This document shows positions 27,794 to 27,870 of a stretch of DNA of 64,000 nt, piece by piece. Origin of the DNA: a virus. How positions within the stretch are numbered: the stretch's first letter is position 1; each line of letters opens with the position of its first letter. The notes under the pieces are model-generated. The model did not search any database. It was given only the letters and a program-made list of their open reading frames with translations, and was not told the origin of the DNA. Made by a program: the position numbers and the translations under genes. The stretch lies in IMG/VR virus record IMGVR_UViG_3300045988_084761. One strand, given 5' to 3'.

Positions 27794-27870
27794 TTGCGGA
27801 GTAGCGTAATGGTTAGCGCAGGGGTCTCTAAAACCTCGGGAGTGGGTTCGAATCCCACCTCCGCTGCCAA
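27794..27870 (+). tRNA. amber suppressor tRNA (anticodon CUA, reads UAG). Chimeric body: Trp-like anticodon arm, Gln-like D-arm
   Basis: Acceptor (t)gcggag/ctccgc(t), G73, CCA; D-arm tagcgtaatggttagcgc; AC ggggt-CTCTAAA-acctc; T-arm gtggg-TTCGAAT-cccac. The anticodon arm differs from Bacillus-type tRNA-Trp (…GGTCTCCAAAACC…) essentially by CCA to CTA. Confidence 0.75.

What the first reader, a model, noticed from the sequence alone, without database searches (positions are those of the whole stretch)
27794..27870. Phage-encoded amber suppressor tRNA(CUA) with a chimeric Trp-like/Gln-like body
A canonical cloverleaf carries the anticodon loop CTCTAAA (anticodon CUA).

Its anticodon arm (GGGGTCTCTAAAACCTC) is one substitution away from Bacillus-type tRNA-Trp (GGTCTCCAAAACC), differing only at the anticodon.

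Its D-arm (TAGCGTAATGGTTAGCGC) is nearly identical to the phage's own tRNA-Gln(UUG) D-arm at 18977.

This gives the decoding agent for the recoded TAGs. It also suggests the tRNA arose by anticodon mutation of a Trp-like tRNA, with identity elements possibly shifted towards Gln.
Basis: seen in the sequence. Interest (0 to 1): 0.9.

Follow-up and report, generated by a model that had tools for sequence, protein, structure and literature searches.

The report
Phage amber suppressor tRNA reading TAG as glutamine
This is a real phage-encoded tRNA that reads the stop codon TAG as glutamine so that the phage can translate its TAG-interrupted lysis and structural genes. This kind of recoding is already known in gut phages, but this phage family adds a deliberately unpaired first base pair in the tRNA.

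Summary
A canonical 75-nt tRNA with anticodon CUA lies at 27795-27869 (+). It sits in a roughly 148-kb-class gut phage that also carries 31 other tRNAs, a tmRNA and a ROOL RNA.

At least 35 in-frame TAG codons in the window lie inside conserved genes. The lysin has 10, a GIY-YIG protein 11, and ThyX, tail-fibre-like genes and others have fewer.

Across the phage family, TAG aligns with Gln in 34% of pairs and with Trp in 0.5%. Its substitution profile mirrors that of true Gln codons. The tRNA is therefore a TAG-to-Gln (code 15) suppressor, a known kind (Ivanova 2014; Borges 2021/22; Peters 2022; Babkin 2023).

The "chimeric" description holds when measured. The acceptor stem and D-arm are Gln-like (+30 bits) and the anticodon arm is Trp-like (-10 bits).

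That anticodon arm is not specific to Trp. It is the generic arm of tRNAs with A36 (Cys, Trp, Phe and the phage's own Tyr), and its core matches the E. coli tRNA-Trp arm with C35U. Family evidence favours descent from tRNA-Gln rather than from tRNA-Trp.

It occurs in 18 of 23 distinct suppressor tRNAs of this phage family, against 8 of 373 other tRNAs. Together with G73, G10 and U35, this matches classical determinants for charging by GlnRS.

The parts
27795..27869 (+). Suppressor tRNA(CUA), 75 nt, canonical class I cloverleaf with encoded CCA
   Evidence: ARAGORN; Rfam RF00005 at 61.6 bits; cloverleaf minimum-free-energy fold; 96.3 bits against the suppressor-family covariance model R1
27828..27830 (+). 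Anticodon CTA (C34 U35 A36) within the loop CUCUAAA. U35 is the main anticodon determinant for GlnRS.
   Evidence: Sequence; ARAGORN places the anticodon at position 34; GlnRS identity rules as reviewed in PMC9976931
27821..27837 (+). Anticodon arm GGGGTCTCTAAAACCTC. Its 13-nt core equals the E. coli tRNA-Trp arm with C35U. It is the generic arm of tRNAs that read UNN codons (A36).
   Evidence: E. coli trpT sequence; genome scan found the identical arm with GCA 64, CCA 38, GAA 12; the window's tRNA-Tyr carries CCGGTCTGTAAAACCGG
27795..27795 (+). U1, unpaired with U72 (27865). G73 is at 27866 and CCA at 27867-27869.
   Evidence: Sequence; fold leaves 1 and 72 unpaired; a 1:72 mismatch occurs in 18/23 distinct suppressor tRNAs of the family against 8/373 other tRNAs
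27804..27819 (+). D-arm GCGTAATGGTTAGCGC (G10 present), Gln-like
   Evidence: One extra T relative to tRNA-Gln(UUG) at 18977; D-region log-odds +14.3 bits for Gln over Trp
27750..27778 (+). Weak sigma-70-like promoter match (TTCAAA-17-TATAGT, 9/12) ending 17 nt upstream of the tRNA. A perfect consensus (TTGACA-17-TATAAT, with a TG before the -10 hexamer) lies at 27323-27351.
   Evidence: Consensus scan only; not evidence of function
49782..51188 (+). Client gene: endolysin (Phage_lysozyme2 + Amidase_2, SLH-like C-terminus). It has 10 in-frame TAG against 13 CAA/CAG.
58396..59307 (+). Client gene: protein with a hydrophobic N-terminus (read from the translation as a transmembrane segment plus coiled coil) and a GIY-YIG domain. 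It has 11 in-frame TAG against 8 CAA/CAG.
59588..60214 (+). Client gene: ThyX, 3 in-frame TAG. The TAG at 59846 occupies the Gln found at the aligned position of the ThyX motif (SQ-SQRY) in four solved ThyX chains.
22113..26352 (+). Client genes: four tail-fibre-like structural ORFs with 9 in-frame TAG in all
61657..62637 (+). Client gene: AAA_24 ATPase with 2 in-frame TAG
6481..7197 (+). Client gene: uracil-DNA glycosylase with 1 in-frame TAG
27888..28205 (+). Small, very basic ORF (106 codons) that starts 19 nt after the tRNA behind an AAGGAGG ribosome-binding site. It has 1 in-frame TAG (28104), which aligns with Trp in 5 relatives.
   Evidence: no family match

Best explanation
The gene at 27795-27869 encodes an amber suppressor tRNA that inserts glutamine at UAG (genetic code 15). 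It belongs to a roughly 145-150 kb gut phage, probably infecting a Firmicute. That phage writes about 10% of its Gln codons as TAG, concentrated in the lysin (43%), a membrane GIY-YIG protein (58%), ThyX and tail-fibre-like genes. Long blocks of RNA-repair, NAD and gyrase genes contain no TAG.

Shown here: the tRNA exists, the TAGs are sense codons, and they behave like Gln codons in evolution.

Inferred, step 1 (charging). No synthetase or release factor is encoded in the window, so a host enzyme probably charges the tRNA. Host GlnRS is the most likely one. The tRNA has the features that in E. coli direct amber suppressors to GlnRS: U35, G73, G10, G2-C71 and an unpaired 1:72.

Inferred, step 2 (efficiency). 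The anticodon arm has the A36-A37-A38 'extended anticodon' form, and its core is the E. coli tRNA-Trp arm with C35U. This form is associated with efficient UAG reading and with i6A37-type modification.

Inferred, step 3 (timing). Proteins with many TAGs, notably the lysin, can be completed only once the suppressor is abundant. This would delay lysis, as Borges et al. proposed for other recoded phages.

Evolution. The suppressor family most probably arose from the phage's tRNA-Gln lineage (A1-U72, G73) through two changes: G36A in the anticodon and a single substitution that breaks 1:72. In the window's sub-lineage the anticodon arm later moved towards the A36 consensus, by point changes or by arm exchange.
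For: tRNA call: ARAGORN, Rfam and the fold agree.

TAG is a sense codon:
- At least 35 TAGs are spanned on both sides by alignments to relatives.
- All 51 curated ORFs, which were delimited at TAA/TGA, end in TAA (40) or TGA (11).

TAG is Gln:
- Window TAG against sense residues in relatives: Q 57 of 135, next E 17.
- With 35-75% identical relatives only: Q 53% of 147 pairs.
- Family-wide, 8597 pairs: Q 34.3%, K 17.8%, E 10.1%, N 6.5%, H 5.3%, W 0.5%. True Gln codons give Q 44.1, K 12.5, E 9.8, N 5.8, H 4.0.
- The log-likelihood of Q exceeds the next best (K) by 4181 nats. The pairs are not independent.
- The TAG at 59846 aligns with Gln in four solved ThyX chains.

Conservation: 39 of 80 related IMG/VR loci carry a tRNA(CUA) within 10 kb of the same DUF2828 gene, usually next to tRNA-Ser(UGA).

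Gln affinity of the tRNA body:
- Covariance model ranking in the window: Gln(CUG) 70.9, Trp 63.0, Gln(UUG) 61.7 bits.
- 29 of the 46 best non-suppressor hits in relatives are Gln.
- Gln-versus-Trp log-odds are +18.7 bits overall.

1:72 mismatch: 18/23 suppressors against 8/373 other tRNAs, with several mismatch types (U.U, A.C, C.U, C.C, U.C). This argues for selection on non-pairing.

GlnRS rules from the literature:
- Amber tRNA-Trp and amber tRNA-fMet are charged with Gln.
- Pairs 1-72 and 3-70, the discriminator, the 10-25 pair, U35 and G36 are the identity elements (PMC9976931; PMC2965240).

No aaRS or release factor was found among the window's ORFs.

Literature on the phenomenon: 10.1101/2021.08.26.457843, PMC10607447, PMC9523058 (abstract).
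Against: - There is no direct evidence of expression, charging or the inserted residue.
- The host is unknown. The only hints are an SLH-bearing lysin in relatives and a related phage contig binned with a Eubacterium MAG. Whether the host has GlnRS was not tested.
- Two E. coli Gln identity elements are absent: G3-C70 is C3-G70 here, and U38 is A38. G36 is necessarily lost.
- TAG aligns with Lys more often (17.8%) than genuine Gln codons do (12.5%). Some Lys insertion, or simply TAG<->AAG mutational proximity, is not excluded.
- One TAG (28104) aligns with Trp in 5 relatives.
- TAGs also occur in ThyX, UDG and an AAA_24 ATPase, which are not classical late genes. The late-gene timing model therefore fits only in part.
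- Bacterial tRNA-Trp genes with the same arm are about as similar over the rest of the molecule (about 72%) as the phage tRNA-Gln(UUG) is (73%). Ancestry of this particular copy is not settled.
Confidence: 0.85

Rival explanations
1. The tRNA descends from a tRNA-Trp by the C35U anticodon mutation, as in E. coli Su7. It is charged with Gln only because the CUA anticodon redirects it to GlnRS. The Gln-like acceptor and D-arm were acquired later.
For: - The 13-nt core of the anticodon arm equals the E. coli trpT arm with C35U.
- The anticodon arm scores -10.1 bits, meaning Trp-like, against the phage family's Gln and Trp sets.
- Among bacterial tRNAs with the identical arm, the best overall matches are tRNA-Trp at 77%.
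- tRNA-Trp(CUA) is known to be charged with Gln in E. coli (PMC2965240).
Against: - The identical arm is more often found on tRNA-Cys (64) than on tRNA-Trp (38) in a capped genome sample, and also on Phe.
- Its core is on the window's own tRNA-Tyr and tRNA-Phe but not on its tRNA-Trp.
- The acceptor and D-arm are Gln-like (+30 bits), and the whole molecule scores +18.7 bits for Gln. That lies outside the leave-one-out range of Trp, whose maximum is +1.4.
- All 22 family suppressors have Gln-like acceptors, and several have Gln-type anticodon arms one step from CUG.
Confidence: 0.12
2. The tRNA is charged through the indirect pathway. A non-discriminating GluRS would make Glu-tRNA, and GatCAB would amidate it to Gln. 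This applies if the Firmicute host lacks GlnRS.
For: Many bacteria lack GlnRS and use this route. Amidotransferases read position 1:72 of tRNA-Gln (U1-A72), and the suppressor has U1 (PMC9976931).
Against: - The main element recognised by B. subtilis GluRS on tRNA-Gln is a modified U34 (PMC9976931). The suppressor has C34, as does the phage's own tRNA-Gln(CUG), which suggests that the host charges C34 Gln tRNAs directly.
- The recognised pair is U1-A72, but here 72 is U.
- The host genome was not examined.
Confidence: 0.15
3. The tRNA inserts another amino acid, for example Lys (LysRS often mischarges amber suppressors), Trp or pyrrolysine.
For: - ARAGORN labels it Pyl.
- Lys is the second most frequent residue opposite TAG, at 17.8%.
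- One TAG aligns with Trp.
- LysRS mischarging of amber suppressors is common (PMC2965240).
Against: - Q is favoured over K by 4181 nats, and W accounts for 0.5% of pairs.
- LysRS needs A73 (PMC2965240), and this tRNA has G73.
- TrpRS needs C35 (PMC2965240).
- From general knowledge, tRNA-Pyl has a 6-bp anticodon stem, a 3-nt variable loop, a small D-loop and no GG/T-psi-C. None of these is seen here.
- No PylS-like ORF was found in the window.
Confidence: 0.04
4. The tRNA(CUA) is a bystander or decoy, for example part of an array that replaces host tRNAs destroyed by defence nucleases. TAG readthrough would be achieved in some other way.
For: The phage carries a very large tRNA array and an RNA-repair module. 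Borges et al. detected suppressor tRNAs in only about 40% of TAG-recoded genomes.
Against: No host codon needs a CUA anticodon. The gene is conserved in position and in structure across diverged relatives that all carry in-frame TAGs.
Confidence: 0.03

Closest known systems
Suppressor tRNA(CUA) genes of TAG-to-Gln (code 15) recoded gut phages: crAss-like, Lak, Agate and others (Ivanova 2014; Borges et al. 2021/22, 10.1101/2021.08.26.457843; Peters et al. 2022, PMC9523058)
   Same: - A phage-encoded tRNA(CUA).
- In-frame TAG aligning with Gln.
- Recoded codons concentrated in lysis and structural genes, while some replication genes stay in standard code.
- No dedicated synthetase, so reliance on host GlnRS is presumed.
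   Different: - A different phage lineage. The nearest GenBank phages share only 40% amino-acid identity in a marker protein. The roughly 148 kb size and the Firmicute hints would fit the 'Agate' description, but clade membership was not tested.
- The suppressors of this lineage carry a 1:72 mismatch. A sample of 39 other distinct phage tRNA(CUA) sequences does not: 34 are Watson-Crick and 2 G.U, and the 3 mismatched ones belong to this lineage.
phAss-1 / 'Phassvirus' group (Babkin et al. 2023, PMC10607447)
   Same: - Gut phages of 133-136 kb with 28-36 tRNAs and 2-3 tRNA-Sup(CTA) genes.
- TAG in about 40 ORFs, read as Gln.
- No dedicated synthetase.
- Predicted Clostridia host.
   Different: No nucleotide match between window 27000-47000 and any INPHARED record, so the window is not closely related at the DNA level to any phage record in that collection. 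Only one suppressor copy is seen in this window.
E. coli Su7 (supU), the amber suppressor derived from tRNA-Trp (Yaniv et al. 1974, as cited in PMC2965240)
   Same: - The same 13-nt anticodon-arm core, GGUCUCUAAAACC.
- G73.
- It works the same way: the CUA anticodon diverts the tRNA from TrpRS to GlnRS and it inserts Gln.
   Different: Su7 keeps the tRNA-Trp acceptor stem (A1-U72, G2-C71, G3-C70) and D-arm. The phage tRNA has a Gln-like acceptor and D-arm and an unpaired U1.U72.
E. coli supE (tRNA-Gln2 with CUA) and the GlnRS identity set (reviewed in PMC9976931)
   Same: - A Gln-type body with a CUA anticodon made by G36A.
- U35, G73, G10, G2-C71 and a weak 1:72.
   Different: - supE keeps U1-A72, G3-C70 and the Gln-type loop (A37 U38).
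- The phage tRNA has a true 1:72 mismatch, C3-G70, and an A37 A38 loop on a U31-A39 stem.

Membership tests
Phage suppressor tRNA of code-15 (TAG to Gln) recoded phages | Canonical tRNA fold with anticodon CUA encoded in a phage genome | tested here: met
   Phage context: lysin, tail-fibre-like genes, tRNA array and 80 IMG/VR relatives.
Phage suppressor tRNA of code-15 (TAG to Gln) recoded phages | In-frame TAG codons inside conserved genes, with homology continuing on both sides | tested here: met
   At least 35 TAGs are spanned by alignments. About 42 TAG against 380 CAA/CAG.
Phage suppressor tRNA of code-15 (TAG to Gln) recoded phages | TAG aligns best with glutamine in homologues | tested here: met
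   Q is 34% of 8597 pairs family-wide and 53% for the window. The profile mirrors true Gln codons. Database proteins could not be used, because they were already translated with TAG=Q.
Phage suppressor tRNA of code-15 (TAG to Gln) recoded phages | Recoded codons concentrated in late, structural or lysis genes | tested here: inconclusive
   The lysin (43% of Gln positions) and the tail-fibre-like genes are recoded. Gyrase, ligase, RNA-repair and NAD genes have none. However, ThyX, UDG and AAA_24 also contain TAG. No expression timing data are available.
Phage suppressor tRNA of code-15 (TAG to Gln) recoded phages | Gln actually inserted at UAG | not testable with these tools
   Needs proteomics, as done for crAss-like phages in PMC9523058.
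tRNA-Gln lineage / GlnRS substrate (E. coli identity set) | U35 in the anticodon | tested here: met
   Anticodon C34 U35 A36
tRNA-Gln lineage / GlnRS substrate (E. coli identity set) | G36 | tested here: not met
   A36, as in every amber suppressor
tRNA-Gln lineage / GlnRS substrate (E. coli identity set) | G73 discriminator and a weak or breakable 1:72 pair | tested here: met
   G73 and a U1.U72 mismatch. G73 is present in 22/22 family suppressors.
tRNA-Gln lineage / GlnRS substrate (E. coli identity set) | G2-C71 and G3-C70 | tested here: inconclusive
   G2-C71 is present, but 3:70 is C-G. The phage family's own tRNA-Gln genes show the same mixture: 3:70 is C-G in 20 and G-C in 16.
tRNA-Gln lineage / GlnRS substrate (E. 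coli identity set) | G10 (the 10-25 pair) | tested here: met
   G10-C25. G10 is present in 22/22 suppressors.
tRNA-Gln lineage / GlnRS substrate (E. coli identity set) | Overall sequence affinity to tRNA-Gln rather than to other isoacceptors | tested here: met
   Model R1 ranks Gln(CUG) first among the window's non-suppressor tRNAs, with Trp second and Gln(UUG) third. 29 of the top 46 hits in relatives are Gln. Log-odds are +18.7 bits for Gln over Trp.
tRNA-Gln lineage / GlnRS substrate (E. coli identity set) | Charged by GlnRS | not testable with these tools
tRNA-Trp-derived suppressor (Su7 type) | Anticodon arm of tRNA-Trp with C35U | tested here: met
   The 13-nt core is identical to E. coli trpT apart from C35U. 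The arm is shared with Cys, Phe and Tyr tRNAs.
tRNA-Trp-derived suppressor (Su7 type) | tRNA-Trp acceptor stem and D-arm (A1-U72, G3-C70) | tested here: not met
   U1.U72 and C3-G70. Acceptor +16.2 and D-arm +14.3 bits towards Gln. All 7 family tRNA-Trp genes have G3-C70.
tRNA-Pyl | Atypical fold (6-bp anticodon stem, 3-nt variable loop, short D-loop without G18G19, no T54-psi55) together with the pylS/pylBCD genes | tested here: not met
   The tRNA has a 5-bp anticodon stem, a 4-nt variable loop, an 8-nt D-loop with GG, and a TTCGAAT T-loop. No Pyl genes were found among the window's ORFs. The tRNA-Pyl features are from general knowledge.
Initiator-type tRNA (1:72 mismatch) | 1:72 mismatch plus three consecutive G-C pairs at 29-31:39-41 plus A11-U24 | tested here: not met
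   The mismatch is present, but 31:39 is U-A and 11:24 is C-G. The TAGs are internal to genes and align with Gln.

The most novel reading that the evidence does not exclude
The 1:72 mismatch, specific to this clade, may be a regulated switch rather than a passive identity element. The suppressor would be transcribed in a mismatched form (U1.U72). The phage's own Thg1-like 3'-5' polymerase (44453-45352, inside an RNA-repair module) would then replace position 1 using U72 as template, giving the A1-U72 pair that this phage family's tRNA-Gln genes have. Charging of the suppressor, and hence the change of genetic code, would then depend on a phage enzyme. This would be the first 5' tRNA editing of the mitochondrial type found in a virus. 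In the same window, tRNA-His also has a U1.C72 mismatch that templated repair would turn into G1-C72.
Probability: 0.05. Interest if true: 0.85.

Novelty: new member of a known kind. Interest (0 to 1): 0.4.

Why it matters
How recoded phages make a standard-code host charge a stop-codon-reading tRNA is an acknowledged open point. Borges et al. simply presume that host GlnRS is 'susceptible'.

This phage family gives a concrete, testable answer at the level of tRNA design. It has a Gln-type acceptor and D-arm, and a first base pair kept unpaired (18/23 suppressors against 2% of other tRNAs). In the window's sub-lineage these are joined to the anticodon-arm type I recall as the most efficient UAG reader in E. 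coli (Yarus et al. 1986, from memory).

This makes a clean prediction for biochemistry: restoring the 1:72 pair should lower charging by GlnRS and lower suppression. It also offers natural templates for engineering amber suppressors in Firmicutes.

For annotation, the practical point is that this window must be translated with code 15. Otherwise the lysin, the tail-fibre-like genes, ThyX and others appear fragmented.

Tried and rejected
1. Counting residues opposite TAG in the 120 best database homologues of the lysin gave Q at 7 of 10 sites. I rejected this as circular. The DNA of two of these homologues (P0115 and P0002, loci L001-L005) has TAG wherever the database protein says Q, so they had been translated with code 15. 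I replaced it with codon-level comparisons on raw DNA.

PDB alignments of ThyX and UDG gave one informative conserved Gln and otherwise variable positions.

3. Megablast of 20 kb against GenBank phages found nothing. blastn of the tRNA against E. coli genomes also found nothing, so I read trpT directly instead.

4. I tried to correlate the presence of the suppressor within 10 kb with TAG density per locus. This was uninformative. Nearly all relatives are recoded, the tRNA can lie outside the fetched flank, and close relatives inflate the counts through spurious-frame alignments.

5. Possible Ser charging of the long-variable-arm suppressor variants in relatives. TAG still aligns with Q (33%) and not with S in those phages.

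6. The 1:72 mismatch as a general hallmark of phage amber suppressors. Rejected: 34 of 39 other distinct phage tRNA(CUA) sequences have a Watson-Crick 1:72 pair.

7. The initiator-tRNA reading of the mismatch and the tRNA-Pyl reading. Both were rejected on structure (see the membership test).

8. Folding energy as evidence. The z-score is only -1.23, so the fold alone is not significant. The covariance models carry the weight.

9. Host identification was not achieved.
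Full report
**Observation.** ARAGORN finds 32 RNA genes on the + strand between 9.9 and 28.8 kb. One of them is a 75-nt tRNA with anticodon cta at 27795-27869. The 'Pyl' label only reflects the anticodon. Rfam's tRNA model scores it 61.6 bits, and the minimum-free-energy fold is a clean cloverleaf in which positions 1 and 72 stay unpaired.

Read directly from the sequence, the tRNA has these parts:
- acceptor UGCGGAG/CUCCGCU (U1.U72), G73 and an encoded CCA
- D-arm GCGU-AAUGGUUA-GCGC
- anticodon stem GGGGU/ACCUC with loop CUCUAAA
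- variable loop GGGA
- T-arm GUGGG-UUCGAAU-CCCAC

Both sequence comparisons are factually right. The D-arm differs from that of tRNA-Gln(UUG) at 18977 by one extra T. The core GGTCTCTAAAACC differs from E. coli trpT only at position 35.

**Context.** The window (37.7% G+C) is phage DNA. Its main features are:
- an endolysin (Phage_lysozyme2 + Amidase_2)
- four tail-fibre-like ORFs
- gyrase A and B, DNA ligase, RNase H, ThyX and UDG
- a major-vault-protein-like gene next to a DUF2828/DUF7788 gene
- an RNA-repair set: cREC_REC, RlaP, phosphoesterases, RNA ligase, a Thg1-like protein and an AAA_33 kinase
- NAD-salvage genes
- a tmRNA and a ROOL RNA inside the tRNA array

No synthetase or release factor is encoded in the window. 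Eighty related IMG/VR contigs were retrieved, many of 100-200 kb, and the five closest share 80-81% amino-acid identity in the DUF2828 protein. Two of those closest loci, and a locus from a 148,793-bp ENA contig retrieved through a lysin homologue, are about 79% identical to the window in nucleotides. A related 147,780-bp contig is filed inside a 'Eubacterium sp.' MAG and is syntenic with the window at 75-83% identity. The nearest GenBank phages reach only 40% amino-acid identity; they are Bacillus siphophages. Megablast finds nothing.

**Is TAG a sense codon?** When only TAA and TGA are treated as stops, long ORFs appear that contain TAG:

| Gene | In-frame TAG | CAA/CAG |
|---|---|---|
| lysin | 10 | 13 |
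| hydrophobic-N-terminus GIY-YIG protein | 11 | 8 |
| ThyX | 3 | 2 |
| four tail-fibre-like ORFs | 9 | |
| AAA_24 ATPase | 2 | |
| UDG | 1 | |

The block 28870-47554 and the RNase H-to-ligase genes have none. At least 35 TAGs are spanned on both sides by alignments to relatives. All 51 curated ORFs, which were delimited at TAA/TGA, end in TAA (40) or TGA (11).

**Which amino acid?** The obvious test was counting residues opposite TAG in database homologues of the lysin. It gave Q at 7 of 10 sites, but it is circular. The DNA of two of those homologues has TAG where the stored protein says Q, so they had been translated with code 15.

I therefore re-translated all fetched loci with TAG as X and compared codons.
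- For the window, TAG faces Q in 57 of 135 sense pairs, with E next at 17. Using only 35-75% identical relatives, it faces Q in 53% of 147 pairs.
- Across the family (8597 pairs, 961 sites) the residues opposite TAG are Q 34.3%, K 17.8%, E 10.1%, N 6.5%, H 5.3% and W 0.5%.
- Genuine Gln codons in the same alignments give Q 44.1, K 12.5, E 9.8, N 5.8 and H 4.0. The rank order is the same.
- The TAG at 59846 sits on the Gln at the aligned position of the ThyX motif in four solved ThyX chains.

Gln is thus strongly supported and Trp is excluded. A minor Lys component cannot be ruled out.

**Conservation of the tRNA.** Thirty-nine loci, including the window itself, carry a tRNA(CUA) within 10 kb of the same DUF2828 gene, usually just after tRNA-Ser(UGA). 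Some carry two copies.

**Trp-like or Gln-like?** I built a covariance model from 18 suppressor sequences.
- In the window it scores the suppressor at 96.3 bits, then tRNA-Gln(CUG) 70.9, tRNA-Trp 63.0 and tRNA-Gln(UUG) 61.7. All other tRNAs score 57 or less.
- In relatives, 29 of the 46 best non-suppressor hits are tRNA-Gln and 4 are tRNA-Trp.
- On the model-guided alignment I computed position-wise log-odds between the family's 38 distinct Gln and 7 distinct Trp tRNAs, leaving out the anticodon. The window-type suppressor scores +18.7 bits overall: acceptor +16.2, D region +14.3, anticodon arm -10.1, variable loop +0.9 and T-arm -2.5.
- Leave-one-out values are at least +6.0 for Gln and at most +1.4 for Trp.

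The Trp-likeness of the arm is not specific, however.
- A scan of 185,579 species genomes for the identical arm with any anticodon was capped at 120 hits. It returned 64 tRNA-Cys, 38 tRNA-Trp, 12 tRNA-Phe, 3 tRNA-Leu(UAA) and one CUA, which was the related phage contig.
- In this window the arm core sits on tRNA-Tyr(GUA) at 20251-20335 (CCGGTCTGTAAAACCGG; Rfam only) and on tRNA-Phe.
- The phage's own tRNA-Trp has a different arm, ATGCTCTCCAAAAGCAT.

All of these tRNAs have A36. The arm is the 'extended anticodon' form of UNN readers (A36-A37-A38 on a G29-G30-U31 stem), which I know from the Yarus work and from MiaA substrate rules (general knowledge, not tested here).

Other family suppressors have Gln-type arms, for example CCUGG-CUCUAAC-CCAGG. 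These are one G36A step from tRNA-Gln(CUG). Their acceptor stems are identical to tRNA-Gln(CUG) of relatives except at position 1: UCCGGCU.../AGCCGGU against ACCGGCU.../AGCCGGU.

The most economical history is origin from tRNA-Gln, followed by remodelling of the anticodon arm in the window's sub-lineage. A Trp origin for this copy is not excluded. Bacterial tRNA-Trp genes that share the arm are about 72% identical over the rest of the molecule, as good as the phage tRNA-Gln(UUG) at 73%.

**The 1:72 mismatch.** I counted distinct tRNAs of this phage family that have an encoded CCA.
- 18 of 23 suppressors have a non-pairing 1:72.
- Only 8 of 373 other tRNAs do. These 8 include an initiator-like Met and two tRNA-His in which G-1 complicates the register.
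- The mismatches are of several types (U.U, A.C, C.U, C.C, U.C).
- The family's tRNA-Gln genes are A1-U72 (26 of 38), U1-A72 (9), G.U (2) or A.C (1). Most suppressor mismatches are one substitution away from A1-U72.
- G73 and G10 are invariant in the suppressors.
- In a wider sample of 39 other distinct phage tRNA(CUA) sequences, 34 have a Watson-Crick 1:72. The only 3 mismatches belong to this family.

The feature is therefore specific to this clade and looks selected for non-pairing.

It fits classical E. coli results:
- GlnRS identity lies in the anticodon (U35, G36), the 10-25 pair, the acceptor stem (1-72, 3-70) and the discriminator.
- Amber tRNA-Trp and amber tRNA-fMet (naturally C1.A72) are charged with Gln.
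- An amber tRNA-Ser becomes Gln-specific after changes at 1-72 and 3-70 (PMC9976931; PMC2965240).

My inference is that a pre-opened 1:72 compensates for the loss of G36. This is not shown.

**Which enzyme?** Direct charging by host GlnRS is my preferred reading. According to PMC9976931, B. subtilis-type GluRS recognises tRNA-Gln mainly through a modified U34. The suppressor, like the phage's own tRNA-Gln(CUG), has C34. The host was not identified, so this remains an inference.

**Expression.** A weak sigma-70-like match ends 17 nt upstream of the tRNA, and a perfect consensus promoter lies at 27323-27351. These are pattern matches only.

**Comparison with what is known.** Phage suppressor tRNAs and TAG-to-Gln recoding concentrated in lysis and structural genes are well documented:
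- Borges et al.
- Peters et al., with proteomic proof for crAss-like phages
- Babkin et al., for the 133-136 kb phAss group with 28-36 tRNAs and a predicted Clostridia host

This window is another lineage of the same kind. What I did not find described in the papers I read are the quantitative arm-by-arm make-up of the suppressor and the clade-specific 1:72 mismatch. My literature search was limited to the open-access library.

**Verdict.** The finding is a real feature, correctly spotted and correctly assigned a function. The evolutionary reading is only partly right. It is a new member of a known kind, of moderate interest because of the 1:72 design feature. A speculative link between that mismatch and the phage's Thg1-like enzyme is the most novel reading that the evidence does not exclude.

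Noticed in passing
window 19073-19668 (+): A full-length ROOL RNA (RF03087, 353 bits) sits inside the tRNA array, between tRNA-Gln(UUG) and tRNA-Gln(CUG). A tmRNA (tag DNDYFENYLAA) is at 16273-16588.
   Followed up: no
window 19935-20053, 20251-20335 and 9993-10087 (+): Rfam finds two tRNAs that ARAGORN missed. One has a 57-nt insertion in the anticodon region (19935-20053, possibly an intron). The other is a tRNA-Tyr(GUA) with a long variable arm (20251-20335). tRNA-Ile(UAU) at 9993-10087 is 95 nt long and may also carry an insertion.
   Followed up: partly
window 28870-46505 (+): A block of genes with no TAG at all. It holds a DUF2828/DUF7788 protein next to a major-vault-protein-like protein (817 aa), cREC_REC, RlaP, three phosphoesterases, an RNA ligase, a Thg1-like protein and an AAA_33 kinase. 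NAD-salvage genes are also there (isochorismatase, PRTase, NAPRTase, NAD synthase). It looks like an RNA-repair and NAD-restoration counter-defence module.
   Followed up: partly
window 14123-14199 (+): tRNA-His has an encoded G-1 opposite C73 but a U1.C72 mismatch. L055 has the same arrangement. This is the only other recurrent 1:72 mismatch in the family, and the phage encodes a Thg1-like enzyme.
   Followed up: partly
L011:8252-8342, L019:3072-3162, L050:4570-4660, L052:6279-6370, L058:6923-7013, L077:3153-3241, L082:1116-1207, L083:1377-1466: Relatives carry tRNA(CUA) variants of 89-95 nt with a long extra arm between the anticodon arm and the T-arm, but with Gln-like D-arms and G73. TAG still aligns with Gln, not Ser, in those phages.
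   Followed up: partly
L020:7275-7426 and L055:14047-14196: Elements of about 150 nt match the suppressor-tRNA model (57-64 bits) with a large insertion in the anticodon region. The L020 element lies directly after a normal tRNA(CUA) and has a near-identical acceptor stem. They may be intron-containing suppressor tRNAs.
   Followed up: no
window 27888-28205 (+): A very basic 106-codon ORF with a strong ribosome-binding site starts 19 nt after the suppressor tRNA. It contains one TAG (28104), which aligns with Trp, not Gln, in five relatives. It has no family match.
   Followed up: partly
window 27047-27136 versus 27795-27869: The neighbouring tRNA-Ser(UGA) shares its whole T-arm (17/17) and most of its acceptor stem (GCGGAG/CUCCG) with the suppressor. 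This hints at exchange of segments between adjacent tRNA genes.
   Followed up: no
L111 (CALCFD010000051.1, 147,780 bp): A contig filed in a 'Eubacterium sp.' MAG is a phage genome related to this window (syntenic, 75-83% identity). It carries the same suppressor tRNA with one base difference. This is either a binning artefact or a hint to the host.
   Followed up: partly
public protein database entries P0001-P0120: Two of these homologues, checked at the DNA level (P0115 and P0002), are stored already translated with TAG=Q. Protein-level alignments cannot be used to infer what TAG encodes without going back to the DNA.
   Followed up: yes
window 58396-59307 (+): A GIY-YIG domain protein with a hydrophobic N-terminus, read from the translation as a transmembrane segment and a coiled coil, has the highest TAG density in the window: 11 TAG against 8 CAA/CAG, mostly in the coiled-coil part.
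   Followed up: no
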